Shown here: in pieces, positions 1-57,975 of the stretch | Position numbering within the stretch: position 1 is the first letter of the stretch | How the letters are laid out: every line of letters starts with the position of its first letter | From: Geosiphon pyriformis uo1 | Taxonomy: Eukaryota > Fungi > Glomeromycota | Direction: 5' to 3' | Assembly: GCA_016748015.1 (NCBI GenBank) | Contig: JAAOMT010000441.1 | Location: 372,001-436,000, forward strand | DNA length: 64,000 nucleotides | Made by a program: the position numbers and the translations under genes | Notes under the pieces: generated by a model | The model's database searches: none | What the model saw: only the letters and a program-made list of their open reading frames with translations | Told to the model about the DNA's origin: nothing

Positions 1-196
1 ATATAGTTTAAAGGATATTGGCTTTAAGTAATTTTATTTCTATTGTAATAATATAATATAGTCTGAACTGGTTTGAGTTACTAATTACATGTAAAAAGCA
101 TGTAAACTATATTTAGTCTAGAATACTAAGTTTATTTTTAATTTCTAAATAGTAGTTGGGCCATATTTATTAAACCAAAATAAAAATAAATAAATA
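1..196 (+). mobile_element. Heavily eroded 3' end (3'UTR plus TAAA-type tail) of the LINE family
   Basis: 61-120 (gtctgaactggtttgag...acatgtaaaaagcatgt...tttagt) aligns by eye to the reverse complement of the LINE 3'UTR at ~48040-48100; followed by aaataaaaataaataaata. Confidence 0.6.
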
Positions 197-1320
197 TATA
201 ATATTATATTTTATAATTTAATTATATTATTTAAAGTAGTTGAGCCATACTCATAAAATGCATAATAATAATAAAATTATTTAAAGATTTTATTAATTTT
301 AAAATTTTTACAATTAAGTTTTTTGTATAAAAAACAGAAATTTATTATTAATTATTTTTAAATGTTTTATTTTTTAGTATAATAATTAGTTTATTTTGGT
401 GTTTTTTATTTTTTTAATAAGTTATTAAACTTGTTATATTTTAATTTTATATTTAAATTTATATTTTTTATTAAATTATTTATAATATTATAATTTTGAT
501 ATTTATTTTTTATTTAATTAATTTAATAATAATAACAAAATACAAACAAAAAATAAAGCAAAAAAATTATATTTTATTAATAATTCTAATTAAAAATTAT
601 TATTTTAGTATATTAAAATTCTTAAATATTTATTTTTAATATTAATTACTTGTAAAATAAGATAAATATTATAATAAATAAAATTTATGTAATTTTTTCT
701 GGTTTTAATTAATAAGTTTTATTAATTTATAAATTGAAAATAACAAAATAAGTTAGATTTAAATTAAGTTAATTGTTTTTAATAAATTAAAAATTAATAA
801 AATTAAATAAAATCAAAAATGGTTTTTTTATTTTTAATAATAATATTATATATATATAAATAATATAAAATATTTTGGTATTTTTGGCTATTTTTTTACT
901 TTTTTTTAGCTATTATTAATATTATTAGTATTTTTACTAGTATTTCTATAATTTTTAATACTTTTAATATTTTTAAAATTCTTATAATTATTTTTAAAAA
1001 TTTTGATATTAAATTATTTTATTAACTTTAATATATAATTGGCTAATATATTTTATATGTTTAATATTAATTATTTTTTCTATTTTTTATTAATAACAAT
1101 AGCAATTATTTTATGTAATAAATATTTAATAATTAAAAGATTATAAACAAAACAAAAACAAAAATTTAAAGTCTAATTTTTTAATAATATTATATGTTTA
1201 CTTTGTTTAATTTTATTATATATCTTATATATTAAAAATAAAATATTGTAAAATATTTTAAATTTTAAATATTTAAATTATTAATTTTTTTATTAATTAA
1301 TATAATTAAATATAAATATA
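197..1320. other. Extremely AT-rich desert, probably terminally decayed repeat DNA
   Basis: Almost no C/G and no ORFs in the track; flanked by eroded LINE ends. Confidence 0.6.
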
Positions 1321-4074: not shown

Positions 4075-4957
4075 TATTACAAGTGACAATTTCTGGTGTT
4101 GAATTAAATACAAACCTGTAACTTGGTGCTCAAAGCTATTCTTGTTGTTGATGATCTGAAGGTTTGATATCTGAAAGTTTTGTATCTGAAGGGTTTGGTT
4201 GAGTTTTTTGTATAATGAACAGAGATTCAATGGTGATGGTTTTATCTGTAGCTTCCCGAAACCACAGTTTTGTCAATTTTTTTCTCAGCTTGATGGCCGG
4301 TATTCCTCCTGGTAAGCTATCCTCAATCGAATGTTCTACCCTTATTTCTGGGTCTTTTACCAGTCACGTTTATCCTGATGTCAGTATCCTGTGCATTAAT
4401 CCTCAATAGAATTAGTAAACAACAATAAAATCAAAGCAAGAAAATAAAAAAATAAAAAAATAAAAAAAAAAAAAGAAATAAGCCAAGGTGATTTGTAAGT
4501 TAGTATTCCGTCAATAGCCATGATCAAGAGCTATTGTTCCAGTGTGGTTAAGTATCAATTACTATCAACATAAAGTATTAATAGTGGAAATGGGTTTGAG
4601 ATAACAAATAGTTATTTATTAGATGTTTGTAATTTGGAGAGTTGCTTAGATTAAATCTAAACTAAGAGGTCTGTCTTTTCAGCTTCTAATCCTGCTGCTA
4701 TATATACATAATTGAGATTCTTCAATTCCTCGATTCTTCATGACAGAAATCCTGGAATTCCTGGAATCCTGCAATTTCTTTAAGAGGAATTCTGGAATTC
4801 TGGAATTCTGGAATCCTGCGATTCCTCATCAGGGAATTCTGAAATTCCTGGAATCCTGCAATTCTTAAAAGGAATCCTGGAATTCCACATTTACTACGCC
4901 TACTTCTGATTGGCTAATAATCATGCTAATATATTTCTTATATTTCTATGAGTAACA
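4075..4957 (-). repeat. 3' LTR of element A
   Basis: Direct repeat of 23023-23866; begins tattac (tgttac with G>A), ends gtaaca. Confidence 0.95.
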
Positions 4958-5534: not shown

Positions 5535-5579
5535 TTCCTGGTGTTGGATCAATTGAAAGAGTTGTTGTGCTATGGTTTT

Positions 5580-6050: not shown

Positions 6051-6054
6051 ATGT

Positions 6055-7033
6055 TGTTACCAGAGGTTTTTGGTCTTTTTTCTTGAATGTTGTTGATGTT
6101 GATTTGCTGTGAATTCACGTTTTCAGGAAGTAGTTGAATCTCCAGTAACTGAATTTATCTTCAAATTATCTCCTATAATTTGAATTGCTGGGCTTATTAG
6201 TGAAATGGCCAATTCTGTGTCAGTTGCTTTGTGTAGTTACGTTGTAGTAAACGTCAACTCTTTTTCAGGAATTGCTTGTCTGAAAGCTCACTAAAAATGT
6301 GTAGTTACTTTACTGTAAAAGTCAACTCTTCTACAGAAATCTCATCTGTAGGCTACTCCAATGATTATACTAAGAAAAAAAAAAAAAAAATGAAAGAAAT
6401 GCAAAAGAACTAGAATTTTGTCAAGAGAAACGTTTTCTATTCAGGCCTGGAGTCACTAACAGTTTACTGAAATTGGTAGTTAATCAATTTCAAAATGTTA
6501 GTTGAATTTTGGAGATTTTCCAAGTACAATAATTAAAAAATTTGGTTTTTCGAATTATTTGATATTTTTTTTTTGTGTGTATAGGAATGGTTCTAAGTGA
6601 TAAATCTAAAGTAAGATACATTTTCTTGAAGAGAGAAGCTCTTCTTTTATACAACTTGTCATAACACTATTCTATGAACTTGAACTTTGCTATTTTCTAT
6701 AATTTTGTTGAACTAAAGATATATTTCAGCAAACTACAAGTTATTTCTGCGAACTATTAAATATTTCGGCGAACTATCAATTATTTTGGCAAATTTCTTA
6801 CAAATTTCGGCGAACTTTTTGAATGTTACATAGTTTGGGATATTGCATGATTGATCATCATAATTAGATCACATTTGTGTTATGTACAAATTGGGTTATT
6901 AATTAAATGATAATTTTGGATATTTTGCTAATGTAATAAGTGATAATTTGAAACAATAATATACGCTAATTAATGATAAGATTTATAAGGATAATTTTAT
7001 GTTAAACAATATCTCTAATTTCATCTGGTAATA
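6055..7033 (-). repeat. 3' LTR of element B
   Basis: Direct repeat of 14963-15940; tgttac...gtaata (gtaaca with C>T). Confidence 0.95.
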
Positions 7034-7721
7034 TAACCTCCTTCTTAAGACTGAGCTCCGTCAAAGTCCAAGTACTGTCTGTAATTTCCAGATAATAATC
7101 CAAAATTATTGAAGAAATTTGGTCTGAAAATTGTTGAAATTTCAGTTCTGTGAGCTTTCCAATGTATTGAATCTTCAAAGGCTGTAAAATTGGGTTTTGT
7201 AGGACGTTTTCACAGGTGTGAAATAGGTCATAAAGTCTAAGAACAGCTCTTAGTTTATAATGACTGTTTGTAGGTCCAGCTGTCGTCTTGAATTCATTGT
7301 AGAGTTGTTTCCGAATAGTTTTTTTTGTGAGGTTTGCTGTTATAAGCTCTAGTTTTCACTCATGAAGCATTTTTCCAATATAGAAATATCTATATATTGG
7401 AGGATATTTGCCATTTTCTTCATTAAGACACAGTTGAAGTTTTTGTTGAATAGTAGCATTTGGTGGAATACTAATAGGGGTGAGCAATAAGTTTTCTCTT
7501 AAAGCAAGCTTCAAAAGTTCTGGTAAATGAATTCCAGAATAACTTCTTGTTTTCTTTCTATAAGGGTGATACTTTCGTGAATTTGGGGCTAGATTTGTAA
7601 CTATTTCTGTTAGGGTATAATTAATATGTTTTCCAGTGATAGTAATGGATAATTCAGGTATTGTTTTTAAAGCTAACATTAATTTTTGAGATAACTGTTG
7701 AATATTTTGAGGGATAGTCAT
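7002..7721 (-). pseudogene. ORF3 of element B (~239 aa, one internal TGA), running through the PPT into the 3' LTR
   Basis: Track ORF 7356-7721 continues in frame past the TGA (KLELITANL...RAVLRLYDLF...IGKLTELKF...) to TAA at 7002. Confidence 0.7.
7034..7046 (-). promoter_or_regulatory. Polypurine tract of element B
   Basis: Minus strand AAGAAGGAGGTTA abutting the 3' LTR; near-identical tract at ~29741-29753. Confidence 0.85.
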
Positions 7722-7867
7722 TATAATGAAATTAGAAAAAAAATAAAATTGAAATTATTTTTGGTATGTGGGTTTTTATGTTATTTTTGTTTTTTTAGCA
7801 TGTTTTGTTTTGTTTTTGTTGTGATATGTTTCTAAATTATAAGGGAATAACTATAATAAAATTGAAA

Positions 7868-9253
7868 TTAAGTGTTCAAGTTGGGGGGTTGTTCAATGAC
7901 AACTATTGGTTCTAAGTTTCGGGGAATGTCTTTGGGATTGATTAAAGGAGAATGTGTACCAATTTGTGGAATTAATGATTCAGAATTGTTTCTGGAATTA
8001 TAGTGTTTCAAACAATCTCCATGTGCAACTTTTGCTAGGATTTTGTCATCAAGTCTTAGCTTGTATGATCCATTGCCTAAAACTTCCTGGATAAAGAATG
8101 ATCTATCCCATTTATTCTCAAATTTTCCACTCCATTGTTTTTCAGCTTTAGTTCTGTGTAAGAAAACTTTGTTTCCAATTTTAAATTCATTGGTGGCTGG
8201 AGGCAATTTGTTATCATGCCATTTTTTTTGTTGAGCTTGGGAGTGTTCAATATGGGTGGCTGCTATTCGTTGTTTTCCTTCTAATGTGCTAAGCAGAGTA
8301 TAGGCTCTTTGCTAAAGCGTTTCCTGAAAATTGTTTTCATCAATTGGTTGTGCTGGGTATGTTTCCACTGTAAAACTGATTGGTAACATTGCTGTCCTTC
8401 CATAAGTTAAATCAAATGGTGTGTGTTTTGTGGTATTTTGTTTTAGTGTCCTATATGCTAGTAACATTGATGGGATAAAGATATTCCATTCTTGCTTAAA
8501 ATCAGTTGAGACTTTGGCTAGTGATTCACACAGTGTCCTATTAAAACGTTCTACAAGCCCATTTGTTTGTGGATGGTAGAATGAAGATAATGGTCTCTTG
8601 ACATTAAATTGTTCACAAATTTTCTGGATTAAATTGTTTACAAAATGTGTTCCTTGATCAGATAAAAGTTCTATTGGACATCCATGTCTACAAATAATGT
8701 CTTTGTAGATGAAGTTTGCTACTGATTTTGCATCTGTTCATTGAATAGCTCTGGCTTTGGGCCATTTGGTGAAATAGTCTACAGCTACTGCAATATAATG
8801 GTTTCCTTGGTTTGTGATAGGTAGTGGTCCAACTAAATCGATACCAACTCTGTCAAAAGGCTGTCCAACTTTGATTGGGTTTAAAGGTTCTGTAGGGTGA
8901 GTTCCTTCTCTTCTTTGACAACTATCACAAGATTTAATGTATTCATGAATATCTTTTTTTATTCGAGGCCAAAAGTAATATTCTAATGTTCTCTGGATGG
9001 TGCTGTTTTTTTCTAGGTATGCTGATGAAGGATCTAAGTGCATGTTATATAGAATAGTTTCTTTTTTATGTTCTTGTATTAATCTGAGTAAATTGTCTGG
9101 GTTTCTGAAGTTTTGATAATAAATCATGTTGTTGTGTAGGAAGTATTGTTTGGCTTGTTGTTGTAACTGATGTTTTTCATCTGAGAACCAATCTGTTGAG
9201 ATTGTTAATGTCTTCAAATATTGTTTAAGATTGTTGTAGTTTTTGGGGTTCAT
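7868..9253 (-). pseudogene. Integrase ORF of element B (HHCC, rve core, GPF-type tail)
   Basis: MH..P...YFWP..CDSCQ, RVGIDLVGPLP, SDQGTHF, HPQTNGLVERFN, FKIGNKV. Confidence 0.92.
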
Positions 9254-9299
9254 TGTTTGTTGTTTTGTTGTTAATTCAAATAGGTGTTGTTTTTATGTT

Positions 9300-12200
9300 C
9301 TAATCTTGTCTCATTCTTGAGAGACAATCAACATTGGTGTGGAGTTTTCCTGGTTTGTGATGTACAATGTATCAGTAGTTGGCTAAAAATCCTGTCCATC
9401 GGGTTTGTTTTGCGTTTAGCTGAGTGTTTTTGTTCTGAAGCCATTTGAGTCCAATATTATCAGTAATAATATCGAATTCTTTAGGTCTGAGATAAAGGTT
9501 GAAGTGGTGTAGAGCCCAGATTACTACTGCAGTTTCTAATTCTGTTACAGGGTAGTTTTTTTCAGCTGGCTTCAATGTTCTGCTAGCATAAGCAATTACT
9601 CACTCATTTTCATTGTCATCTAACTGTGATAGGATGGCACCAAAGACAGTATAAGAGACATCTGTTGCTAACCGGAATCAATTGCTGAAATTTGGGTAGG
9701 TGAAAATTGGAGCTGTGATTAGTTTTTCTTTGAGGATTTCAAATGCATTTTGGTGTTTAGCAGTCTATTTGTATTTGACATTTTTGGTGGTAAGCTGGTT
9801 GAAAGGTTTCACAATTTCTGAAAATCCTTTGATAAACTTCCGATAGTAGGAGGCTAATCCTATGAATCCTCTTAATTCTGTAGTGTTTTAAGGAGTTTTG
9901 AAGTTTTTGACAGTGCTGATTTTTCCAGAGTCCGGTTTGATTCCATCTTTACTAATGATATGACTAAGGAAGGCCAAGCTTGTTTTTTCAAAGTAGCATT
10001 TTTCGATGTTGAGTTTTAGTCCTGCTTTTTGTAATCATTGAAAAACTTCTCGCAGGTGTTTTAAGTGTAATTCAAATGATGGAGAATAAACATCAGTATT
10101 GTCAAGATAAACGACTACTGACTTCCAAAGGAGTCTTTGGTACACAACATCCATTAATCTCTGAAACATTGCTGGTGTATTGCATAATCCAAAAGGCATT
10201 ACATTGAACTTGTAATTTCTGTTTTGGGTGGTAAATACTGTTTTGGGGCGATCTTTGGGATCCATAGCAACTTGCCAGTAACTGCTTTCTAAATCTAGTG
10301 TTGAAAAGTATTTGGATTTTCCAAGAGCATCTAACATGTTATCAATTTGGGAAAGGGGGTAAGCATCTCCAATTGTAACACTATTGAGTTGTCGATAGTC
10401 AACACAAAATTGTATTTTTTCATTTTTCTTTTTAACTAGTACTATAGGTAAAGCCCAAGGACTCATGAAGGGTTGAATAAGCCCATTGTTAAGCATTCAT
10501 TGTACTTCTTCTCGGATGAATTGGTGGCTTTCTAGAGCAGCTTGATAGGCTTGTTGTCATCTTGGTTTGACATCTCCTGTGTAGATTTGATGTTAAACCA
10601 AATCGGTTCTTCCTAAGTCATTGTTGTTTTTGGCAAAGATATCAGCAAATTCTACAATTAGCTCTTTAAGCTGGTTTTGTTGTTGTGGTTCAAGTTGTCC
10701 CATGTTGATTTGAGATAGTTTTTCTATGACAACATGATAGTTTTCAGAGCTGAGATTTGGGTTGATTTTTGGTAGTAAATGTTCAATAATTTCAGAAAAA
10801 TTGGGGACTGTTTAGGGTAATTCTTGTTGAAATATATTACGGTGAATAACTCCAATTTCTAAATTATTTAATAGAACTATGGGGTAATTGTTGGGATTGT
10901 AAAAAGTAACTCGGACTTTCTTTGTTCTTTCTGGAATATAAATGTTTGGGATCAAAATATTATGTTCCAAGCAGACTTGTTCATTGGACTCAAAAATTTG
11001 TTGTGTGGTTGTTGGTTTTGGACAAGTGTAGATTTCCAGATGTTCTCCAAAGGGTGAGATGGTAATTGGTTGTGGAAGTCTGAGAATCTGGTGGGATTCG
11101 TTCTGTGTGTTAAGAGCTATATTAACTGGAACTGTGAATCATCTAGTTGAACCAAAACCTTGGGTTTTTCTATTGCTTTTTCCTAATTGTTCTCTTTGAT
11201 TGACTAGTTGCAAACCCGAAATGTTGATTAGGAGTAGGTAAATAGCTTGGGCAATTTTTTCAGCATGTTTGATCTTGAATGGTTTGTCAGTTTCATTTTG
11301 GAGCATCACTGTAATGTTTCCAGTATATCCAGCATCAATTATTCTTTCTCTGACATTGATTTCTTTGCTTGCCAGAAAGAACCAGAAGGCAATTTGAATT
11401 ATTGCTTCTGGTGGAATTTCGAGTGCAATTTTTAGATTGATTTTTGTGAGAGATTTGGGTTTGAGAACAAAAATATCCTTGTCTAGATATCTTAAGTCAT
11501 ATCCAACATCAATTTCATGTGCTTTTTTGGGTTTTATTCCTTGTCCATTATTGTTGAAGTATTTGAGTTGTAAGGCAGGCTGACTTTTGATAAGATAGAT
11601 GGATGTTGTTTCAATTTCTTCTGTTGCTTCAAGTTCTCCAAATTCAATTTTGTTTTTATCATTTTTACTGGACAGAAGAATGCTAAGAGCATAGCATTCA
11701 GGGCACCATTGCTCATTACAGGGCATTATGTATTCTTCACACAATTTGACGTTCATTTGCTCTAGCCATTGAGCTTGAGCTTCTTTAGTCGAGTAAGTGT
11801 AACTGGCAATTTGGTGATATACTTCTACTTCATCTTCATAGTTGTATCTAGCAATTTCAAAGGTGTATGCAATGTATTCTGATTCTTTCATTTGATGAAC
11901 ATTTTCTTGAGTGGCTCTGTTGATTAAAGTCATTGCTAAGTTGAAAATCATTTTGGCATCATGAGAGTAATGGTACAGTTTGTTGAGAGCACTGTTGTAT
12001 GCTGCATCAAAGGGTGTTCCTCTTTTGACTTTTTCTGAAATTGATAAAGCATATTGGCAGGTTTGATCACAGACTCCTCCTCTCATTGTTACATCAATCC
12101 AATTGCATTCTTCTGGTAGCATATCTCCACAAGTCAAACAAAGGGTGTTGTCCCATTTTTCACTTCTTTTTATTAGATGGCCCTATCATTCTCTGTGGCA

Positions 12201-14917
12201 AGCCTTGCAGTAATAACAAGTAAGATTTTCATATTCTTTTTCAGGTGAAATGCAGACTTCTATTAATGATAGTTTCTTGTGGTATTCCTTATATTTAAGG
12301 GAAATATAGGAGCGTTGTTTCCTTGGTTCAGGCTTTGAGTAAGAGATATTCTATCTAGGGGTTTTGGGTTCAGAATGTGATGTAAAATGTTCTTGTTCAG
12401 TTTCCTTGGGCCAATTGGATGTTAATCCAAGAGCCATGAATGTTTCGATTATTGGTTTTTCTTCTTCTGGTTCAAATTCAAAAGCTGGGGCTTTTTCAGA
12501 GCATTTGTTGAATGTACCACAAGTGACAGGTACTTGGGCATGTTGTCCTTGGTAAGAGATTTGTAGTTCTTGGGTTTCCCAGTCTAATTTCACATTGGCT
12601 TTTTGGAGCCAAATGTTTCCAACAAGGGCTTGATACTGAGGAGCATCTATTATAAGAACTTTGACTGGAATGGTAATTCCATCAAGAGTGAATGGAAAAT
12701 TGTCAATTTCTTCTACTGGAGTCTTTTTCATGCTATTGGCAGTAACAATTACTGTCTGAGCTGGTCGGTCAACATTTTTTTTAACTGTTGTATCAACTGG
12801 TAGATAATGATGCTTCCGGCGGATCCACTGTCTAGGATCAAGCGAATTGGCTTTCCTTCTGCTTCAGCTTCTGTGTATATTGCAGTAATGGCTTTTTGCT
12901 TATTAGCCACTGCACTGCTAAGCAAAAATGGTGATTCATTTGCTTCAAATTCGAAAGAGAATATATTAGAAAGATTGGCATTTTCAGCAATTCTGGCTAA
13001 TGGAATAGTAGTGTGGTTATGAGAAAGATTTTGTTGTTGTGCTGTAGCTCTACCTTCCAAAGGTGCAGTATGGTGAAAATCTTGTTCTTCTGGCATTGTT
13101 AAATAACTGGGTTGAGTGTGATAGTGGTTGGGTCTTGATTGAGTGGAATTTTGGGAAACCAATTGGTTGTTTAAACTGATTCTATTGTTGTTTACTTGGT
13201 ATCAGTTTTGTGGTGTGAATTGATTTTGTGTAATAAGTCTTCGAGCAAGTACTTGATAATGTTGTGTGGGCAGTTGTTGGTATTGCTGTTGGATTGGCTG
13301 TGAAGTGAACTAATAATAGTTACTTTGGTATTGGGGTCTTAGTAGATAGTAGGCTGGTGGTAGTGATTGATAATAAAATTGCTGTAGTGGAGGGTAACGT
13401 TGATTACTCCTATTTGGTTGGTCTTATTGTAGCTTTCTGCAATCTTTTTTCCAGTGGCCAGAGATTCTACAGTAATGGCAATTCTGAGGCTGGTTATTAG
13501 AAAGTGGTGCAAAATTATTTTGACTTTGTCTTTGGGGTGGTTGATATCTTTGGGATTGCTGTTGTTGTTAATTGGTGAAATAGTTTTCAACCTTCTTTGT
13601 GAGTTGGTCAATTTTTTCCTCAGCTGCTGAGCTGGTTTCTTCAATTGCCAAATTTACAAGTTTTGTGCGATTGGCCTCTTCCATGGCCATTTCATATCTT
13701 TTCGCATGCTGTATGACAGAGTTTAAATCTTCTGGAGCATGTGGGCAAATCTTTTTAATTAGCTTATCTTTTAGACCAGCAATAAATTAATTCAAGATTT
13801 GAGCATCAAAATAATAATTATTGGTTTCGAGTTGGCAAATTTGTCTGAAAAGTTTGTTGAATTTTTCAATATAAGTCATAACAGATTCAGAGGATTCTTG
13901 TTTAATATTGTAAAACCAATTTCGAAGGGTGATGGAGGTATTATTGTCGGTGAACTGTTTAAGGAAGACTGCTTTGAAAGTGTCCCAGTCATTGAATGGA
14001 GTGGCCAAGTTTTCAAACCATTTTCCTGCTGTTCTTTTGAGAAAGTAGAGAATTGTTCTTAACATTCTGGCAGCATTCCATCCATTTGCATCTCCAGCTT
14101 TAGTAACTTGGTCAAGCCATTCTTGGGAACTGGTCTCAATATCTTCTCCATTAAATTCAGGAATTTTTGTGATGTATGCTGTCATTTCATCTTCTTTGTT
14201 TTCACTGTCTATTGATTCTTCTTCAGTTATTTCAGAGTCATTTTTTTCATTTGCTGCTGTCTTAGAGTGTTCACTTTGATTTTTAGCTAGAAAATCAAGG
14301 AGATTGGAATTAGTTTGAAGGGGTTCTTGCTGTTTGGTGGGACTTCTGAGTGATGTAAAATCTTCTGGTCTTGCAAATCAATTCAAGGGTAAATTAAGTG
14401 TTTGTGCTTGTGCAAGTGAAGCTAGAAAAGATGTGATGGTGAGTGGAAGTTTTGAACTGGTTCCTTGTTCAGGTGTTTGTAAGTGTTTGGCAGTTGTTTT
14501 TGGTAGTATTGAAGTATTTAGGGTGGTTTTTGAGTATTGCTTTAATTTGTGTTTGCCTTTGTTGCTTGTTTCTGTCTTTGATTCAAAATCAATAGAGTAT
14601 TGAGACTGCACTGGATATGTTTCTTCACAGTACTTGATAATGTTAAAATTAAGTTTTTGAAAGTAAGTGGCAAGTGTTTCACTGTTAAGATCTTCAGTTC
14701 CCAACTGTGAATAGTGTGCTAAATTATTGTAAAGGTTGCTTTTAACTTCTGAGATATTGTAATTTCCAAAAAGATAATTGTTGATACAGTTTTTAATATA
14801 TTGGTATACTGATTTCTTGACAACTTCAATTCCGTTTGGAATGTTGAATCTTTGCTTGCAGTAGGTGTAAATTGACTGGTAATACTCTAGAGTTGTTGCA
14901 TCTGGTGTGGTCACCAC
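9300..14917 (-). pseudogene. Gag-PR-CysRich-dUTPase-RT-RNaseH polyprotein of element B (fragmented)
   Basis: Gag IPEFNGED..WLDQV; CCHC knuckle CHYCRISGHWKKDC; protease LILDSGSAGS; dUTPase DVGYDL/IIDAGYTGNI/KIAQ/GFGST; RT MPFGL/YLDN; RNase H AEKNY..TELE. Confidence 0.92.
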
Positions 14918-14946
14918 TTTGAAGTTGTTTTTGTTGTGTTGTTTCT

Positions 14947-14960
14947 GTAGGAGAGCACCA
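14947..14960 (-). promoter_or_regulatory. Primer binding site of element B (TGGTGCTCTCCTAC)
   Basis: Starts with TGG 2 nt downstream of the 5' LTR; the tRNA was not identified. Confidence 0.8.
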
Positions 14961-14962
14961 AA

Positions 14963-15940
14963 TGTTACTGGAGGTTTTTGGTCTCTTTTCTTGAATGTTG
15001 TTAATGTTAATTTGCTGTGAATTCACATTTTCAGGAAGTAGTTGAACCTCCAGTAACTGAATTTATCTTCAAATTATTTTCTATAATTTGAACTGCTGGA
15101 CTTATCAATAGAATGGCCAATTCTGTGCCAGTTGCTTTGTGTAGTTATGTTGTAGTAAATGTCAACTCTTTCCCAGGAATTGCTTGTCTGGAAGCTTACT
15201 AAAAATGTGTAGTTACTTTACTGTAAAAGTCAACTCTTCTACAGGAATCTCATCTGTAGGCTATTCCAATGATTATACTAAGAAAAAGAAAAAAAAAATG
15301 AAAGAAATGCAAAAGAACTAGAATTTTGTCAAGAAAAACGTTTTCTATTCAGGCCTGGAGTTACTAACAGTTTACTGAAATTGGTAGTTAATTAATTTCA
15401 AAATGTTAGTTGGATTTTGGGGATTTTCCAAGTACAATAATTAAAGAATTTGGTTTTTTGAATTATTTGATATTTTTTTTTGTGTGTATAGGAATGGTTC
15501 TAAGTGATAAATCTAAAGTAAGATACATTTTCTTGAAGAGAGAAGCTCTTCTTTTATACAACTTGTCATAACACTATTCTATGAACTTAAACTTTGCTAT
15601 TTTCTATAATTTCGCTGAACTAAAGATATATTTTGGCAAACTACAAGTTATTTCTGCAAACTATTAGATATTTCGGCGAACTATTAATTATTTTGGCAAA
15701 TTTCTTACAAATTTCGGCGAACTTTTTAAATGTTACATAGTTCGGAGTATTGCATGATTAATCATTGTAATTAGGTCACATTTGTGTTATGTACAAATTG
15801 GGTTATTAATTAAATGATAATTTTGGATATTTTGCTAATGTAATAAGTGATAATATGAAATGATAATATACGCTAATTAATGATAAGATTTATAAGAGTA
15901 ATTTCATGCTAAACACTATCTCTAATTTCATTTGGTAACA
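14963..15940 (-). repeat. 5' LTR of element B
   Basis: tgttac...gtaaca, 978 bp versus 979 bp for the 3' copy. Confidence 0.95.
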
Positions 15941-15944
15941 ATGT

Positions 15945-16713
15945 TCTAATCATTTTGGTTTTCTTGGTTGAGCTTAGCTATTGCTTCACACAATGTTCTG
16001 TTGAATCTTTCAACTAATCTGTTAATTTGTGGATGGTATGGTGATAATAGTGGTCTCTTAATTCCGAATCTTTGGCTCAATTTTGTTAATGTTCTGTTCA
16101 CAAAATGAGTTCTTTGGTCTGATAATAATTCTTTTGAACATCTGTGTCAACAAATTAAATCTTGATAAACAAATTTAGCAACAGATTCTGCATCCACTCT
16201 TTGAATTGCTTTCGCCTCTGGCCATTTAGTGAGATAGTTCATGGCTACTGCTATGTACCTGTTTCCTCCTCTGGTGATTGTTAATGGTCCGACTAGATCA
16301 ATTTCAATACAGTTGAATGGTTGTCCCATTTTGATTGGTCTTAATGGTTCACTGGATTTTATTCCTTCTTTTCGCTGACAAGCATCACAATTTTGAACAT
16401 ATTGGATGATGTCTGGATACATTGATGGCCAATAGTATTTTTTTCTGGTTCTTTCTATGATTGCTTCTTTGTGAAAGTGTCTTGCTGTTGGATTTGAGTG
16501 CATGTTGAATAATATTGTTTCTTTTTCTGGCTCTGTAATTACTCTGGTTGGTTGTTCTAACTCTCTTCTATTTTTTTGATAAAGTATATTTTGGTAAGTG
16601 ATAAAATATTTTGATTGTTTTTTGATACTCTTTTGTTCTGTTTGAGATAAATTCTCCTTGAATTGTTGAGTGTTTATATAATGTTACAGTTGTTGATATT
16701 TTTGTATGTTCAT
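15945..16713 (-). pseudogene. Integrase of element A, N-terminal part
   Basis: ATG at 16713 (MNIQKYQQL); MHSNPTARH..YYWP..CDACQ; IDLVGPL; HPQINRLVERFN. Confidence 0.9.
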
Positions 16714-16775
16714 CTTTTGTTATATTTTTTGTTTGGTATTGTTCTGGTTTGTTATATTTTTGGGTTGAAATGTTC

Positions 16776-19700
16776 TTAGATTTGTCTCATTTGCGACAAA
16801 CTGTCAGCATTTCCGTTGTTTTTTCTTTTTTTATAATGTATAGTATAATTATATGGTGCGAATGCTATTTTCTATCTTGACTGTCTTCTATCTCCAAATT
16901 TTTGTTTTTGAAGTAATGTTAATCCTTTGTGATCTGTGTATACTTCAAACTTCTGGCTCAAGTATTCTTTCTATTTCATGACTGCCCAGTATATTGCTAA
17001 GTGTTCTTGTTCCGGTGTTCCATAGTTCTTTTCGGCTGGTGTTAAACCTCTACTGGCATATACTACTAGATGTTCCCTGTCATCTGGTTTTCTCTGAAAT
17101 AGTACTGCTTCCAATGCTTGGCCAGATGCATTGGTGGTAATAATGAATGATTTGCTGTGATCTGGATAGATCAGTATTAGAGCTTAAATGAGCTTTCTTC
17201 TTAAAATATCAAAAGCTTCTTGTTGACTTTCTGTCCATTTATATTTTGTATTCTTGGTTTGCAGTTGGTTGAGTGGCTGCACTATCTTGGAAAAGTTTTT
17301 GATAAAATGTCAATAGTAGCTGGTGAATTCCAAGAATGATTTCAGTTTTGTCATATTTGTTAGCACTAAAAAGTTCTTTACTATCTCTATTTTCTCTAGA
17401 TCCGTTTTGATGCTGTCTTTGCTGACTATGTGTCCCAAGAATTTTAGTTCTGTTTTGCCAAAAAAACACTTTGTTGTATTTAACTTTAGTCCTGCTTTTC
17501 TTAGTCTTTCAAACACTTGTTGAAGATAATGAAGATGATCATCAAATGTTTTTGAGAATACATTGGTGTCATCAGTATACAACTACTGATTTCCACAATA
17601 AGCCAATATAAACAATTTTCATTAGCCTTTGGAAAGTGGCTGGTGCGTTGGTTAAGCCAAATGGCATAACTTCAAACTCAAAGTTTCTCTCTTTTGTGGT
17701 GAATGCCATTTTTTTTTGTTGACTGAATCCATAGCTACTTGCCAGTAACTACTATCTAAGTTTAATGTTGAGAACCATTTGTTCCTGCCGAAAGCATCAA
17801 ATAATTCCTGTATTTGTGGAGTTGGATAGCTGTCTTCATGAGTTACACTGTTGAGTTTCCTGTAGTCCACACAAAATCGGATTTTTCCATTCTTTTTATA
17901 GACAAGTACCACTGATGATGATCATGAGCTTATTGATGGTTGAATTAGTCCGTTGTTCAGCATTCAGTTTATCTCTTAATAAATGATCTCGTGGCTGGCT
18001 GGTGGCACTTTGTATGCTTTTTGTTTAATTGGCATTATATCTTCAGTCTTTATTTGATGTTGGATGATGTCAGTTTAGCCAAACTCGTTTTTACTGGCAA
18101 AGATGTTATTAAAATTGTTGAGCAACATCTTAAGCTACATATGTTGTAATGGGTCCAGATTTGCCATGTTCATTTGTTCTAATTGTTTTGGTTGAAACAA
18201 ATAACATTTGTCTTGTCCAAAGATGGTTTGTGATGTGATGTCAACATATTCACAAAGTTGTGGAAAGTCTGGAATGGGGTTTGGTGGTTGATCTTCTATT
18301 TCTGTGGTTAAATATCCGATGGTGGTTCCTTCTGGTATGTTAATGACATTGCCAGTGTTGTTGTAGATGGGAATTTTTATGCAGCTATAGCTTTTGGCTG
18401 GTATGTGGAGATTGATCAGTCTGATTTCTCCTGATTCACAAAGATTTGCTTCTGCTTCAAAAATCTGTTCTTGCTCTTTTTTCTTCTTTTCTATTGCTAG
18501 CATGTACTGGCTATATGGTGGAATGGAAATAGCTTGACTGGTTGAGATAATTTCTCCTTGGTCAACAATTTCTTTCTCCACCATATTAATTGGTACATCT
18601 ATTCTACCCATTGACCCAAATCCCTGTATCTTTCTTGCTGTTATTCCTAACTCTTCCCTATTTCTCACTGACACTAATTGAGCTATTTTAACCAGAGGCA
18701 GAAATATTGTCTGTGCTATCTTTTTGTTTGGCTCTATAATATAGGTCTTTTCTGAATTATTTTGTAGCATGGCGATAATATTTCCTACATATCCTGCATT
18801 AATTATTTCTTCTCTTATATTAATCTCTCTTTTTGCTAAACTACTTTGGGATGCTAGTTGAACCATTGTTGTTGCTGGGATTTCCAGCACTATTTTCAGA
18901 TCAATACAGGTGCGCGAATGTGGTTCCAATTTGATGGCATTTTTTTCTGGATACCTTAAGTCAAATCCAGCATCAGTATCATGCATGCATTCTGGCATAA
19001 TACCTTTATTATTATTGCTGAACCATTTCAATTCTTGTTCCTTGGTAAGATCAGGAAGTGCAATATATTGTTCATAATTTGAGTCAGAGTTTGAATCTGA
19101 GTTGATATTGTTGTCATTGTCATTGCCATTTTGAATGAAGCTGGAACTGTTATTCTCGTCATTATCATTGTCGGAGTTTGAATTGGGATTGAACGGTGAT
19201 TCCAACTCCAATGCGCAGCTGCTGATTGGTTCTTCCTCTTCGGGGATCATGTAGATCATGTGTGGTGGTGGATTGTAAATGAGGTTACAATTGTCACAAT
19301 ATTCAAAGTCATTGGGAATTAAACAATGGTGACACAGTCTTGTATTTAACTGTACTAGCTGTTGTTTTTGCTCCTCTCTAATGGGTGCCAAGTTTTAGTA
19401 GTATTCATGGAACTCTTCTGGTTCCAGAGAATTTATGATTGGCTCTGCATTCCAGTCAAGCTCGATGGGTTTTAGTGAGTTGTTTTTAATTGTTCTGATT
19501 TCTTTTGGCACCTTCAATTTTGGTGATTGCTATTTGCTATAATTTATTGTTGTTGTGTGGACAGCTGTTCAATTGCTGTACAGCTCTTCTCCAGGCGGCT
19601 TCTATTGGTGTCCCTTTTTCAACCCAGTTACTGATGAAGATTGTGTATTGGCAGAACACATCGCACATTCCTTCTCTCCCAGGAATGTTATTCCACATTC

Positions 19701-22700
19701 CTTTGTCAAGGAAAGTTTTTTCACATGCTAAACATGGTGTATTATCCCATTTTCCCACTTGTTTTGGTTTTCCAAAACGTTCGATGAGGCATGTGTAGCA
19801 ATAAAACTTGGTTGCCATCCAATATTCTTTATTGTCGTCACAGCATGTGCCCATTGACGACAATTTCTTGTTGCAATCAATGCATACAAGCCTTGGTCAT
19901 CAATAATTGGATTGTTGTGGAGTGGGGTGGATGTAGGAATTATAAATGGCGGTGGTTTGAGTGGTTTCTTCTTTTTTTTTTCCTTTCCCTTTATCTTCTT
20001 TGTTTTCTTCCCATTCCCAGTTTGCAGTTGGTTCACTCTCGTTGTTGTCAGTCCATGTCAGGTCATTGGTTTCCCAGGTAAGTTCTTCTTTATGTTTCCT
20101 TTTTCCATTGTCATTGTCGTCTCAGGAGAGTATTGGCGGCAGTTCATTGTGCTCTTCTTTGGCCCACAATACTTGGTAGGCTTCTCAGGTAGGTTTTGGT
20201 TTTTCTTTCTCGAAGTTGATTAGTGTGTTGGTAGCCTTGAAATGGCCACATGTTGCTGTATATACATGTGTTATCTGTTCTGGCTAAGTTGAAGCTCTTG
20301 TGTGTTCCAGTTTAGAGTAGTATTTGTCTTGAACAGCCAGTCATTACCAACTAGAACTTGGTATTGGGTGGCTTCCATGACAAGTACTTTGATTGGTACT
20401 ATAATGCCATTAATTTCAATTGGTAAGCCGTCAATTTTGCCGATTGGAGTCTTGGTTACTCCATCAGCTGTGATGATTCTGACACTGGCAGCTTGATCAA
20501 CTTGGCAACCTAATTGATCCATGAGTTGTCGTGTGATGATGCTGTCTGCTGAACCACTGTCAAGAATTAGTTTGATGAAATGGCCATCAATTTTCACATC
20601 AGTGTATATGGCAGTAATTGGCTTTTCTTCCAGTGCAGCTCTACTGAATAATAGTGTGGTTGATGGTTCCTTGAGTTTAAATGGAAAAATGGTGTTCAGA
20701 GATTCATCTTCTGTGATCGTAGCAGGTAGAATGTTGCTGGTAGGTAGTTGTTTGAGTTCCTGGTTGTTGGGTGTGGCATTTTCTGGAGTAATCAGGAGAC
20801 TTAAATAGTTTTGGGAATTCAGGTTTTGGGTGGTATTTGTACCCGAATTCCGAGAATAGAGTCCGGAGCTTTGGTGAGAGGGGCTGGGGATTGGTTGATG
20901 AACAATCATCGCTGATCTCCAATTTTGAGGAATTCTGGGTCTCAGGTTTTCTGATGTCATTGTAGCTGAGTTTTGGATTAGTGTTTGGATTGATAGTTGA
21001 AACTGATAAATTATTTGGAACTGCGGCTGATAAATTATTGAAGACTGCTGTTAATAAATTGCCAGTGGCTGTGGTTGATAAACTGGAGGTTGATAGATTG
21101 GTTGCTGCATCATTGGTAGGTAAGTATTTTGATATTGGTATTGATCTTGATTTAGATAATAGTTCAGAGTTTGGAACCAACGGTTGGGGTTTCTGTATTG
21201 ATTTTCCGATCGTTGGTTGCTATAAGTATGGCAATTAACTCAAATATGGTCTCGTTTACCACAATAGTGGCAGATACGCATTTTCTGTTGTCACTGTTGA
21301 TTGGTCAATAAAGATGAATGTGGTTAATTTTGGGCACAATTAGAGTTTCCTTGATTATTGTGTCGTTGAGGAAGCTGATAAATGGTGTGATTTTCAGCTA
21401 AGTATTCTTCCAATCTCTTATTAATTGATTCACTGAACTTTTCCAATTTGGAATCCAATTCAGATGATCCATTCATTACTAGATTAATGGCTTGGGTGTG
21501 GTTGGCCTCTGACTCAGTGGATTCAAAATCTTTGGTGTGTGTAACTGCGTTTTAAAGTGTGCCTGGATGCAACGAATGTATATGTTGTAAGATGCTGCTG
21601 CACAGGCCACGGATAAACTGTTTGAGGATTTGTAGTGCTGTGAAATAGTTGGTGTCAATTGCTTGAATTTGGCATAGATTTCAATGAAAGCATCCTAGAT
21701 AAGTAGTGACTGCTTCAGTTTCTCCTTGTTTTATGGTTGTAAATGTGTTGACTAGGGAATTAATACTGTTATTGTTGTTAAAGTATCTTAGGAATTCCAC
21801 TTTGAAGGCATTGAAATCTTGTGGTTTATTAATCAAGCTTTGATACCAGGAATTGACGGTATTCTTGAGAAAGTAGGGAATGGCTGTATTGCTTGGGCAT
21901 CATTTCATTCATTGGCTGTGATGGCCTTTTCTACATCATTCAGCCATACTTAAGTGTCATCCTCTTTGCTGGTAAAGTTGTTAAGTTTTGCGATTGGTGC
22001 GTAAGCCATTGGATCTAAGTTGGATTGTTGTGGTACTGGTTGTTGGGGTGGAAGTGGCTGTTGTATGGATTCAGCTATTGGATTAATTGGTAGTTGATTG
22101 ATAACAATTACCGGAGGTAAGTTTTGTTGATTAATTAATTCAGAGTTTAGATTGTTCTGCCTTTGATGATTCAGAGTTTCGATTTCTGAATTTTCTAGAT
22201 TTAGATTTTGTTGAGTTTCAAAATTCGGAGTTTCAACTTCTGAGTTTTCAGTGATCAGGTTCTGGTAAGTAAATTCTTGTTCCTCAGATTTTTCTTCCTT
22301 TTTTTTTGATTTTGTTACTTCTTACAGATCAGAAATTCCGAAATCTGGTGACAGTGGTGGTGATTGGAGGCCTAATGGAGTTGGTAATTGCAAGTTAAAT
22401 CCTTCAAAGTATTTGCTATATGGTCCTAATAAGTCTGTTTTCTCTTGTTTATTTTGAAATAGAAATCTTCCAAATGCTGATGTCACATTTGATGTGAACG
22501 TGCCTGTAGATGTAATATTAATGGCACTTTTCAGTGTGTAGTGATAGGATGGAGCAGTTGGTGATTCAACTCTTGTTTTCTTCCAAGTGGGTGGTTGTAT
22601 CTTTTTGGGTGTTATTGCTGGTATTTGTAGTTTTCCTTTGCCTTTACTGGCATAAGTAATTGAATATCTTTGTTGGGTGTGATGTTTAATTTTTTTGTTG

Positions 22701-22960
22701 ATCTCAGTAATGATAAAGGCAAAATTGTGATTTGTTGGCAGGTTGGTATTTTGAATTAATTCTCTATAGAAAGTTTCCCTGGCTGATTTAGTATTCACTG
22801 GTGTTCCTAACAAAGAGGAAATCTTTTTGTTAACGTAAAAATTAAAGGCTAATTCAATGGATATATTATTGTGGTTTAATCCCAAGTATTGACAATAGTG
22901 TTGAAATAAGGATTTTGCGAATCCTAAATGGTTTGCTCCTATATTTTCTAATTCTGCCAC
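16776..22960 (-). pseudogene. Gag-PR-CysRich-dUTPase-RT-RNaseH polyprotein of element A (fragmented)
   Basis: Gag MAYAPIAKL..WLNDV (~22008); CCHC CHYCGKRDHI (~21270); protease LILDSGSADS; dUTPase DAGFDL/IINAGYVGNI/KIAQ/GFGS; RT RFCVDYRKLN/MPFGL/YTDD; RNase H. Confidence 0.92.
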
Positions 22961-23003
22961 TTTTGGATAGTGTTTGTTGGTGCTGGTTCTCTGTAAGATT
23001 ATA

Positions 23004-23020
23004 CCTCACAGGAAGCACCA
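23004..23020 (-). promoter_or_regulatory. Primer binding site of element A (TGGTGCTTCCTGTGAGG), resembling the 3' end of elongator tRNA-Met
   Basis: Complement CCTCACAGGAAGCACCA resembles eukaryotic elongator tRNA-Met 3' ends as I recall them; not searched. Confidence 0.75.
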
Positions 23021-23022
23021 AA

Positions 23023-23866
23023 TGTTACAGGTGACAATTTCTGGTGTTGAATTAAATACAAACCTGTAACTTGGTGCTCAAAGCTATTCTTGTTGTCAAT
23101 GATCTGAAGGTTTTGTATCTGAAGGATTTGGTTGAGTTCTTTGTATAATGGACAGAGATTCAATGGTGATGGTTTTATTCATAGCTTCCCGAAACCACAG
23201 TTTCATCAATTTCTTTTTCAGCTTGATGGCCAGTATTTCTCCTAATAAGCTATCCTCAATCGAGTGTTCTACTCTTATTTCTGGGTCTTTTACCAGTCAC
23301 ATTTATCCTGACATTAGTACCCCACATGTTAATCCTCAATAGAGTTAGTAAACAACAATAAAATTAAAGCAAGAAAATAAAGAAAATAAAATAAAATAAA
23401 GAAAGAAAAGAAATAAGCCAAGGTGATTTGCAAGTTAGTATTCCGTCAATAGCCATAATCAAGAGCTATTGTTCCAGTGTGGTTAAATATCAATTACTAT
23501 CAACATAAAGTGTTGATAGTGGAAATAGGTTTAAAATAACAAATAGTAATTTGGAGAGTTGCTTAAATTAAATCTAAACTAAGAAGTCTGTCTTTTCAGC
23601 TTCTAATCCTACTGCTATATATACATAATTGAGATTTCTCAATTCCTCGATTCTTCACGATAGGAATCCTGGAATTCCTGGAATCCTGCGATTTCTTTGA
23701 GAGAAATCCTGGAATTCTGGAATCCTGTGATTCCTTGTTGGGGAATCTTGAAATTCCTGGAATCCTGCAATTCCTGAGAGGAATCCTGGAATTCCACATT
23801 TACTATGCCTACTTCTGATTGGCTAATAATCATGCTAATATATTTCCTATATTTCTATGAGTAACA
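23023..23866 (-). repeat. 5' LTR of element A
   Basis: tgttac...gtaaca; repeat of 4075-4957. Confidence 0.95.
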
Positions 23867-26800: not shown

Positions 26801-27870
26801 AGTGCTCTATGTTGATCTCTTGCATCCCACAATTCCTTGTTTTGATCAGTCTTGGCCACATGTACAGCATTCTTTTTAATTAGGATAGACCAACAAGCTG
26901 CAACTAAATCAGTCTGTTCACTCTTACTAAATTCAACTATAGCTTTCTGTTACAAACCCACCAACTGTATTTTAATCGACACCACCATATCAAATACAGA
27001 TAGTGCAGCATGTACAGCCTCAGCCGAAGTCTCAATAAAGATTTTTTTCACTACCACAGCCCAATCTGAGTACTTGATGATTTTTTGAGATTGGTGTTCA
27101 CTAAGATCTTCACTTCCTCAGCTTTTTTAGAAGCCTGCACCAAACTTAATTCAGAAGTAAATGTCACTCTGATGATTCTAGCAAATTTCAAAAGGATAAA
27201 ACCCCCCCCAAAACCATTGATTTTAGAAAATAACTTTTTAACTACTACAAGTTTTTCTTGAGCAGATTTCCCAATAACATTGTCCAAACTAATGTCCAGA
27301 GCAAAAGATCTTCTAGCAGAAACATTGACCAAGTTCTTTAAAGAGAGAAAGAGGACCACAGGTTTGTCTAACAGTATGTCATTATTATTATCACCCAAAA
27401 AGTTAATTTTCTTTAGCAGTTTTTCCAGTGCCCTCTTGGTAAGAATTTTTGAACTTTTAAGCATTTGTTCCAAGTCCTCTTTAGTGAAAGCTTCACCATC
27501 TCCATAATCAAAGCTGGTTTCTTCAACCAAACATTTTTTCTCTATGTCTACACTATCAAACTCAATAGTATCACCAGTTTCAGAACTCCAAGAATGACTA
27601 TTTGACATCTTAGCAGTAACAAATTTTCTATTACCAATATTATTCTTCAAAGCACCACCTCTTCTCTTTTTTCTAGACTTAGCAAACTTAACACCAATAT
27701 CAGAACCAGGCTCCATAATAGACCTGTTTAGAATGGCAATACTAGGGCCAATGGTGGTCTTATAATTAAGCAAAAATGGTTTGAATTTATTGTACTGAAT
27801 AATGAAAAAACTTCTTTCAAAAAATATTTTGGCTCTTTTTTGGGAATTTGGGATGAATGAGAGAAAGAAA
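23867..27870 (-). mobile_element. LINE copy 1, 5' half (5'UTR, ORF1, APE endonuclease, RT N-terminus)
   Basis: ORF1 fragments homologous to 52776-54740; ORF2 MTSLVWKIATCNVKG, GNFNED, IIPKP..TRPIAL; 5'UTR matches 42485-42600. Confidence 0.93.
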
Positions 27871-54740: not shown

Positions 54741-54869
54741 GAACAGAAGTGTATGTAAAGAAATAACTGAAGGGAACAGAAGGGAATAAGGGAAAAGGAA
54801 GATATTTCTTTGACTACTCTATGCTCTCATTATGGTCAGGGGATCAACGAAAGAAAGAGTTTTTTTATT

Positions 54870-57697: not shown

Positions 57698-57975
57698 ACC
57701 GCGAAATTGGGGATCTGATGGATTAATTACGTTGCAATCTTTCGAGCGGATCAGATATCTGTAATATGTGAGATCAGAGCAGATACATGTATTAAAACAG
57801 TTAACAGATAATCGCACTTCGGAATTCCATTCTTTTCCTTCTCTTGTTGTTTACAACATTCACCTTTTTGAAAATAATAAAGGTTCGTCAAATGCAGGTG
57901 CAAAGACTGGTAAAATCACTTCAAAACTTGTCTTCTGCACTCAATTGGTATCACGAGTCTTTTCCAAATAAAACA

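What the first reader, a model, noticed from the sequence alone, without database searches (positions are those of the whole stretch)
6055..6280. RIP-like, transition-only hypermutation of repeats in an apparently non-Dikarya fungus
Seen: over the first ~220 bp of the two B LTRs I count roughly 20 differences, all C/T or G/A, with no transversions. Some are reciprocal CpG decay (tgttacCAga vs tgttacTGga, ancestral CG). Many are non-CpG (gttGatgttGatt vs gttAatgttAatt; ctCtt vs ctTtt). Premature stops in the TEs are mostly explicable as TGG>TAG/TGA, CGA>TGA or CAA>TAA. Host genes nearby keep CpG. Known: RIP is described in Ascomycota and RIP-like change in some Basidiomycota; simple 5mCpG decay would not explain CpA/CpT/CpC loss. 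Inference: a repeat-targeted cytosine modification/deamination defence with relaxed context operates in this lineage. It also inflates LTR-based age estimates.
Basis: partly seen in the sequence, partly recalled or inferred. Interest (0 to 1): 0.75.

Follow-up and report, generated by a model that had tools for sequence, protein, structure and literature searches.

The report
C-to-T hypermutated transposons in Geosiphon
In Geosiphon pyriformis, a relative of the arbuscular mycorrhizal fungi, the paired ends of two retrotransposons differ almost only by C/T or G/A changes, at CG and at other cytosines, while neighbouring genes and spacers keep their CG sites, which likely reflects a methylation-linked process that mutates repeats rather than classical RIP.

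Summary
The host is Geosiphon pyriformis (Glomeromycotina; KOG1 100% identical). The B LTRs (6055-7033, 14963-15940) differ by 56 transitions and 2 transversions, 20:0 in the first 226 columns. The LTRs of the element it is nested in differ 67:2. Other family copies, a relic copy and integrase homologues polarise the changes as mainly C:G>T:A, on both strands and after insertion. CpG is hit hardest (39/72), but 84 of 123 events are non-CpG (CpC 28/119, CpT 29/211, CpA 27/215), with a roughly 2-fold 5'-T preference. Host introns and spacers keep CpG (o/e 0.74-1.5, GC 27-35%), while TE relics fall to 10-16% GC. This is not canonical RIP: there is no CpA preference, and the integrase is hit as hard as the paired LTRs. 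Most likely a CG methyltransferase plus a DIM-2-type enzyme methylate silenced repeats and the 5mC deaminates (0.55). Methylation, enzymes and timing are untested, and no neutral single-copy substitution control was available. Ten literature searches found no report for this lineage; RIP signatures were reported absent in Gigaspora.

The parts
6055..7033 (-). 3' LTR of Gypsy element B; the finding's 6055-6280 lies in it. Its terminal TG is mutated to TA. The polypurine tract is adjacent at about 7036-7046.
   Evidence: 4-bp target duplication ATGT at 6051-6054 and 15941-15944
14963..15940 (-). 5' LTR of element B, followed on the minus strand by a primer-binding-site-like TGGTGCTCTCC
   Evidence: 56 transitions and 2 transversions against the 3' LTR
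7034..14962 (-). Internal region of element B (gag, dUTPase, RT, integrase), broken by stops and frameshifts; CpG o/e 0.19
4075..4957 (-). 3' LTR of Gypsy element A, into whose integrase B inserted; on the + strand it begins TATTAC where the other copy begins TGTTAC
   Evidence: target duplication ATGG at 4071-4074 and 23867-23870
23023..23866 (-). 5' LTR of element A
   Evidence: 67 transitions and 2 transversions against the 3' LTR
15941..23022 (-). Internal region of element A (gag, dUTPase, RT, first part of integrase); the integrase continues at 4958-6054
29329..30721 (+). Relic third copy of the B LTR plus adjacent internal sequence, in opposite orientation, 76% identical. It has T/A at 96 of 238 positions where both B LTRs have C/G.
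27800..33200 (.). AT-rich block (GC 5-26% per 200 bp, at most 1 CpG per 200 bp) built at least partly of LINE and LTR relics, with a sharp border to host DNA
54850..57600 (.). AT-rich block (GC about 12%, CpG o/e 0.00) ending sharply upstream of KOG1. TE origin was not assigned; there is a weak match to the block at 1-1200.
1..1200 (.). AT-rich block (GC 10%, no CpG), 70% similar over 271-807 to 31781-32306
48102..54818 (-). Least decayed LINE-like copy (GC 42%, CpG o/e 0.42). Related copies at 23873-28073 (34%), 1323-4058 (35%) and 42295-48050 (24%) form a GC-loss series.
57892..61989 (+). Host KOG1/Raptor gene, 7 exons; taxonomic anchor and unscarred control

Best explanation
Integrated transposon copies in Geosiphon carry strand-symmetric C:G>T:A changes at CpG and at other cytosines, likely because silenced repeats are methylated by a CG methyltransferase and a broad-context DIM-2-type enzyme and the methylated cytosines then likely deaminate to thymine. 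Shown: the direction and strand symmetry; that the changes postdate insertion; the context order CpG >> CpC > CpT ~ CpA with a 5'-T bias; equal load on LTRs and integrase; decay to 10-16% GC; and sharp borders to host DNA that keeps CpG. Inferred: methylation, the enzymes, targeting by chromatin state rather than by pairing of the two LTRs, and action in vegetative nuclei. Whether deamination is spontaneous or enzyme-assisted is not resolved.
For: 123 transitions to 4 transversions over two LTR pairs; 84:4 without CpG. This compares with 718:317 in 13 close pairs of related soil-metagenome Gypsy copies (Fisher P = 5e-9). Where the left LTR departs from the family majority, 22 of 28 places are window A/T against family G/C. 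Of the 56 LTR transitions, 42 are consistent with C:G>T:A by majority (15 positively, 27 by no majority against the left copy's C/G), 4 more by the relic copy, 1 points the other way, 1 has a third letter and 8 are unresolved. At 303 conserved integrase columns there are 33 GC>AT, 0 AT>GC and 15 transversion changes; 20 of the 33 are certainly non-CpG, against 132 of 11838 columns in control loci. KOG1 at 384 conserved columns gives 2:2:10. Corrected per-copy change is 0.37 at CpG and 0.083 at CpH, against 0.0011 transversions per bp. Non-CpG load in the integrase (B 9/125, A 15/118) is no lower than per LTR copy (0.076, 0.078). Literature: AMF are stated to hold DNMT1, DNMT5, DIM-2 and RID types (PMC8298701 passage, itself citing another paper); Rhizophagus TEs are CG-methylated (PMC8647823 section 6); Phycomyces TEs carry CG and CHH 5mC (PMC11258239 passages); Dim2 gives over 95% C>T in methylated repeats during mitosis in Zymoseptoria (PMC8016269 passages).
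Against: No methylation data and no Geosiphon methyltransferase were seen here. The one experimental Dim2 mutator is over 98% CpA-specific and spares CG, unlike this spectrum. The 5'-T bias at non-CpG sites (46/203 vs 35/334, P = 1.8e-4, found post hoc) is not predicted by any methyltransferase I read about. Equal load on the integrase does not exclude pairing-based RIP, because the internal region is itself a high-copy repeat. The control loci are from unnamed hosts, mostly coding, not independent and selected for intact motifs; three pairs reach CpH Ti/Tv 6.8-9.5. Restriction to repeats rests on composition and on a gene under selection, not on neutral substitutions. The context table assumes C/G is ancestral at every transition.
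Confidence: 0.55

Rival explanations
1. A true RIP-type process: duplicated DNA is recognised by homology in a cryptic premeiotic stage and mutated by a RID-like enzyme with relaxed context, on top of ordinary CpG decay.
For: The changes are transition-only, on both strands and in both copies, and confined to repeats. A RID-type gene is stated for the AMF clade. In Neurospora, older genomic repeats are mutated by DIM-2 as well as RID (PMC11969663 passages), so the line between this rival and the best explanation is thin. One of four LTR copies shows strand runs (P = 0.043, uncorrected).
Against: CpA is the least-hit context (27/215), whereas RIP-like systems share a CpA preference (PMC12543289 section 9). 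There is no excess in the linked LTRs over the integrase. Three of four copies show no strand runs (P = 0.37-0.58). Decay continues in relics far below 80% identity. LTR elements still cover 41.2% of this genome (PMC11952901 passage). Another review lists RID for Ascomycota only (PMC13297926 table).
Confidence: 0.2
2. A methylation-independent route for the non-CpG part: a cytidine deaminase with a TpC preference acting on repeat chromatin, or failure to repair deaminated cytosine in heterochromatin.
For: 5'-T doubles the non-CpG rate in both elements (22/106 vs 19/165; 24/97 vs 16/169). Non-CpG hits show no relation to distance from CpG (P = 0.39) and no CHG excess (14/117 vs 67/420, P = 0.31). 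Relics are TpC-poor and GpC-rich.
Against: Editing of single-stranded cDNA during reverse transcription would be strand-biased, but the counts are 28:28 and 30:37. The preference is only about 2-fold. No deaminase was looked for or seen. CpG dominance still needs 5mC.
Confidence: 0.18
3. Ordinary biology or an artefact: CpG-only 5mC decay plus a genome-wide transition- and AT-biased mutation rate, or sequencing or amplification damage.
For: The genome is AT-rich, CpG is the top context, and some control pairs have CpH Ti/Tv near 10. No neutral substitution control was available.
Against: CpG decay cannot make CA/TA, CT/TT or CC/TC differences, which are 84 of 123. Introns and spacers sit at 27-35% GC with CpG intact, next to relics at 10-16%. 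In the contigs of run X1, at least 130 non-CpG C/G positions of 433 C/G positions in 6055-7500 show a T/A variant at 3% or more, against 27 transversion places. KOG1 is intact.
Confidence: 0.07

Closest known systems
Repeat-induced point mutation (RIP) of Neurospora crassa and other Pezizomycotina
   Same: C:G>T:A only, both strands, in repeated DNA, leaving AT-rich relic blocks with sharp borders and broken TE reading frames.
   Different: No CpA preference (CpA is lowest, CpG highest); linked LTRs are not hit more than the integrase; little strand coordination; non-Dikarya host; timing and RID dependence are unknown.
Dim2-dependent mitotic C>T mutator of Zymoseptoria tritici (PMC8016269, passages)
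   Same: Over 95% of changes are C>T in repeats (here 123 of 127 are transitions); no sexual stage is needed; non-CG cytosines are mutated.
   Different: In Zymoseptoria over 98% of C>T changes are at CpA and CG is spared. Here CpG is fastest and CpC, CpT and CpA are all hit.
TpCpG hypermutation of Pucciniomycotina TEs (PMC3318451, passages)
   Same: RIP-like C>T in TEs outside Ascomycota, CpG involved, a 5'-T effect.
   Different: TpCpG is not special here (13/25 vs 26/47 for other NpCpG). The 5'-T effect is seen at non-CpG sites, and most events are non-CpG.
5mCG on TEs of Rhizophagus irregularis; CG and CHH 5mC on Phycomyces TEs (PMC8647823, PMC11258239)
   Same: Repeat-focused cytosine methylation in the same wider lineage, CG above non-CG.
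   Different: The passages read report methylation, not mutation spectra; RIP signatures are stated as not detected in Gigaspora or Mucoromycotina.

Membership tests
RIP (Pezizomycotina) | Changes are C:G>T:A transitions, nearly without transversions | tested here: met
   123:4; polarised
RIP (Pezizomycotina) | Confined to repeated DNA | tested here: met
   By composition and by KOG1 codon changes within this window only; no neutral substitution control
RIP (Pezizomycotina) | Acts on chromosomal copies, both strands, both duplicates | tested here: met
   Strand by copy counts 13/15/15/13 and 16/17/14/20
RIP (Pezizomycotina) | CpA preference | tested here: not met
   CpA 27/215, CpT 29/211, CpC 28/119, CpG 39/72. 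In the relic copy CpA 43/98, CpC 14/29, CpG 10/18, CpT 28/92.
RIP (Pezizomycotina) | Classical dinucleotide indices (thresholds of about 0.89 and 1.03 are recalled, not from a call) | tested here: inconclusive
   Elements A and B fail the substrate index (1.19-1.49); the three AT-rich blocks pass both (1.05-1.11; 0.79-1.01)
RIP (Pezizomycotina) | Linked duplicate hit more than the linker (homology-directed) | tested here: inconclusive
   Integrase load is at or above LTR load, but the integrase is itself multicopy
RIP (Pezizomycotina) | Strand-coordinated tracts within a copy | tested here: inconclusive
   Runs tests P = 0.043, 0.58, 0.37, 0.37
RIP (Pezizomycotina) | Premeiotic timing and RID dependence | not testable with these tools
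   No genome held; RID type in AMF seen only as a paper's statement
Dim2-dependent mitotic mutator (Zymoseptoria) | Over 95% C>T within repeats | tested here: met
   123 of 127 LTR differences are transitions, mostly polarised C:G>T:A
Dim2-dependent mitotic mutator (Zymoseptoria) | CpA-specific, CG spared | tested here: not met
Dim2-dependent mitotic mutator (Zymoseptoria) | Needs a functional dim2, non-CG 5mC and mitotic growth | not testable with these tools
   No methylome, gene set or mutation-accumulation data
TpCpG hypermutation (Pucciniomycotina) | TpCpG mutated above other NpCpG | tested here: not met
   13/25 vs 26/47
Passive 5mCpG decay | Excess transitions confined to CpG | tested here: not met
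   84 non-CpG transitions to 4 transversions; 20 certainly non-CpG codon changes

The most novel reading that the evidence does not exclude
Geosiphon runs a homology-triggered, RID/DIM-2-type RIP with its own relaxed target (CpG >> CpC > CpT ~ CpA, 5'-T favoured). RIP-type defence would then predate the Dikarya-Mucoromycota split, and, if it is premeiotic as in ascomycetes, the scars would be a genomic record of a cryptic sexual stage in the arbuscular mycorrhizal lineage.
Probability: 0.2. Interest if true: 0.88.

Novelty: new variant of a known kind. Interest (0 to 1): 0.6.

Why it matters
Published statements place RIP-like signatures in Ascomycota only (PMC12543289) and report none in Gigaspora or Mucoromycotina (PMC8647823). 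Geosiphon did not appear in the 12 of 19 supplement files of that survey that were searched. A strong repeat-confined C>T mutator with a new context in Glomeromycotina widens the range of mutational genome defence, and CpA-based indices would miss it in young elements. It bears on dating: LTR and Kimura ages in this genome could be inflated several-fold, so the lack of young-looking TE peaks reported outside Glomeraceae and Diversisporaceae (PMC11952901) may partly reflect hypermutation. It also gives a testable job to the DIM-2 and RID types said to be kept in AMF. If the timing is premeiotic, it speaks to the long-open question of sex in these fungi.

Tried and rejected
Genome-wide spectra and a DNMT or deaminase gene search were not possible: no genome is held, and no fungal DNMT query sequence came from any call. 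A neutral single-copy control was not possible: the runs found are one sample and one study, and no RNA holder was listed. X1 may be the sample the window was assembled from, so it supplies other copies, not an independent organism. X2 laid only 5 contigs and X3 none; neither was used. Stop-codon polarisation with 45-50% identical homologues was noisy for 20 of 31 stops. LINE copy pairs (65-69% identical) show a GC>AT excess toward the AT-richer copy (262:160, 75:41, 128:31, 406:185) but also many transversions, so they are supporting only. cDNA editing during reverse transcription was rejected by strand symmetry. Spreading from CpG sites and a CHG pathway got no support. Four-fold-site values for the ion-transport gene and glucanase exon 2 were read in the wrong strand or frame; one search replaces them (GC4 0.33, 0.34). 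GC4 separates host from TE only partly (KOG1 0.32; B integrase 0.19; LINE 48 kb 0.34-0.35). The block at 54850-57600 could not be tied to a TE in the window. No tRNA genes were found. Look-ups of earlier notes on this genome returned nothing.

Full report
Host and anatomy. The KOG1 frame at 57892-60360 is 100% identical to a protein that the source names Geosiphon pyriformis. The next named hits are Ambispora, Cetraspora, Rhizophagus and Gigaspora at 81-83%, so the window is Glomeromycotina. The finding lies in the 3' LTR of a minus-strand Gypsy element B (LTRs 6055-7033 and 14963-15940, target duplication ATGT). B sits in the integrase of an older element A (LTRs 4075-4957 and 23023-23866, target duplication ATGG). 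Both carry a dUTPase domain; gag, RT and integrase domains were confirmed for B. The window also holds four LINE-like copies, a relic third B LTR and three blocks of 10-16% GC. No whole genome was available.

The observation. The first 226 columns of the B pair show 20 transitions and no transversion. The whole pair shows 56:2 and the A pair 67:2. Against a null with 80% transitions, P is 2.8e-4 and 3.4e-5. Taking C or G as ancestral at each transition, changed sites are CpG 39/72, CpC 28/119, CpT 29/211 and CpA 27/215. CpG is thus the hottest context (Fisher P = 4e-12), but 84 of 123 events are elsewhere, and CpG decay cannot produce them. Events are split evenly between strands and between copies. 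Because the two LTRs are identical at insertion (established retrotransposon biology), the changes postdate insertion. Both 3' LTRs have lost an invariant terminal TG...CA base at a CpA site.

Direction. Logan contigs of run X1 were laid on the left B LTR (12,065 records). At 28 places the majority differs from the window: 22 with window A/T and family G/C, 5 the reverse, and 1 transversion. Of the 56 LTR transitions, 15 have the family majority on the right copy's C/G and 27 have the left copy's C/G with no majority against it. Four more are backed by the relic copy, 1 (6095) points the other way, 1 has a third letter, and 8 are unresolved, 4 of them at CpG. At a 3% threshold over 6055-7500, X1 shows C>T or G>A at 160 of 433 C/G positions, only 30 of which lie in CpG; A>G or T>C at 75 of 1013; and transversions at 27 places (only 40 of 290 rows were shown, so I use the summary counts). 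The relic copy has T/A at 96 of 238 shared C/G positions and G/C at 18 of 651 shared A/T positions, with 52 transversions. Against 120 integrase homologues, the window's copies show 33 GC>AT, 0 AT>GC and 15 transversion-type single changes, plus 13 multi-step or ambiguous ones, at 303 conserved columns; 20 of the 33 are certainly non-CpG.

Controls. Eighty related Gypsy loci from metagenomes (unnamed hosts, selected for intact motifs, the best 80 of 591) show 316:78:424 at 11,838 columns. The window's excess is in non-CpG GC>AT changes (P = 1e-9), not in transversions (P = 0.21). All 13 close pairs among them (at least 82% identity, at least 250 bp) give non-CpG Ti/Tv of 0.7-9.5, pooled 718:317, against 84:4 here (P = 5e-9). 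These pairs are mostly coding and share members, so this is a rough control. KOG1 shows 2:2:10 at 384 conserved columns, under selection. KOG1 introns (537 bp) have 28.7% GC and CpG o/e 1.1, and seven host spacers have 27-35% GC and o/e 0.74-1.51. TE segments have o/e 0.04-0.57, and relic blocks drop to 10-16% GC with borders resolved within about 200-400 bp. Parts of those blocks align to LINE and LTR copies well above shuffles; 54850-57600 does not. The missing control is a neutral substitution spectrum in single-copy DNA.

Mechanistic clues. Corrected per-copy change is 0.37 at CpG and 0.083 at other cytosines, against 0.0011 transversions per bp. Non-CpG hits favour a 5' T (46/203 vs 35/334, repeated in both elements, post hoc) and show no CHG excess and no dependence on distance to CpG. 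Non-CpG load at amino-acid-changing sites in the integrase (B 9/125, A 15/118) is at or above the per-copy LTR load (0.076, 0.078), so the linked repeats are not singled out. Strand runs are marginal in one of four copies. With transversions as a clock and Ti/Tv = 2, the divergences are 9.7- and 11.5-fold inflated; with only 2 transversions each (upper 95% limit 7.2) the floor is about 3-fold.

Interpretation. The shown pattern is a repeat-confined, strand-symmetric, post-insertion C>T excess in all contexts with CpG on top. I infer methylation of silenced repeats by a CG enzyme plus a broad-context DIM-2-type enzyme, followed by deamination (0.55). Rivals are RID-type premeiotic RIP with relaxed context (0.2), a deaminase or repair gap for the non-CpG part (0.18), and ordinary decay or artefact (0.07). 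It works like RIP in outcome. It fails the CpA test for canonical RIP and for the Zymoseptoria Dim2 mutator, and the TpCpG test for the rust and anther-smut pattern, so I do not file it under any of them.

Literature seen. PMC8647823: passages and section 6; RIP signatures not detected in Gigaspora or Mucoromycotina (citing Venice 2020, not seen), and TEs CG-methylated. PMC12543289: abstract, passages, section 9 and 12 of 19 supplement files; signatures only in ascomycetes, CpA shared, no Geosiphon in the text or the searched files. The 7 unsearched files could bear on this. PMC8298701: passages and part 1 of 7; AMF hold all five 5mC MTase types (citing its reference 5, not seen). PMC13297926: passages list RID for Ascomycota only and DIM-2 also in Phycomyces, so the RID claim for AMF is not settled. 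Passages only: PMC8016269, PMC3318451, PMC4352252, PMC7862722, PMC11258239 (54, plus a supplement search), PMC11969663, PMC11952901 (no mention of RIP; LTRs 41.2% of the Geosiphon genome), PMC12344493, and two preprints (56, 67; supplements not seen). Ten searches found no report of such hypermutation in Geosiphon or Glomeromycotina. The Geosiphon genome papers did not appear in these searches and were not read, so the claim of novelty is limited to this library.

Earlier scan notes. Six unchecked AI notes describe a similar CpG-plus-non-CpG pattern in another early-diverging mycorrhizal fungus; five place it in Endogonales or Jimgerdemannia. I did not test them. If they hold, the process is wider than Geosiphon and may lean to CpA and CpC there. 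They are leads, not support.

Verdict. The signal is real and strong, and it is a new variant of repeat-directed C>T mutagenesis in a lineage where none was reported in the papers searched. The mechanism is inferred, not shown. Interest 0.6.

Noticed in passing
window 33418-33999 (+): Broken TnpB/Fanzor-like fragment (PF07282 Cas12f1-like TNB at 33781-33996, E 2.7e-15). It keeps CpG (o/e 0.83, GC 42%) directly beside an AT-rich relic block: a TE-derived gene that seems to have escaped the mutator, useful as a test of copy-number dependence.
   Followed up: partly
window 11139-12182 and 18135-19394 (-): Both Gypsy elements carry a dUTPase domain (PF00692) upstream of RT, inside a long insert in the pol region.
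   Followed up: partly
window 7356-7754 (-): Extra 132-aa frame between integrase and the 3' LTR of element B, with no Pfam match; element A has comparable extra sequence at about 4960-5500.
   Followed up: no
window 54850-57600 and 1-1200: Blocks of about 10-12% GC with no CpG, ending sharply at host genes. They resemble RIP-made AT isochores but are more extreme; the origin of the first is unassigned.
   Followed up: partly
window 35402-39553: Host gene cluster: GH17 glucanase (+), peroxiredoxin with introns (about 37391-38470, -) and a small ion-transport-domain protein (38846-39553, -; 'Hv1-like' is my recalled label).
   Followed up: partly
window 6055-7500, run X2: X2 holds only five low-depth, divergent contigs of the B family, with more transversions than X1; possibly another library type or organism in the same sample.
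   Followed up: no
L001, L007, L018: A few metagenome Gypsy loci have low CpG o/e (0.20, 0.08, 0.34), and L001 and L018 lean to non-CpG GC>AT changes; these may be other hosts with the same process.
   Followed up: no
window 4717-4885 and 23633-23794: LTR A contains degenerate short tandem repeats around an AATTCCTGGAAT-like motif.
   Followed up: no
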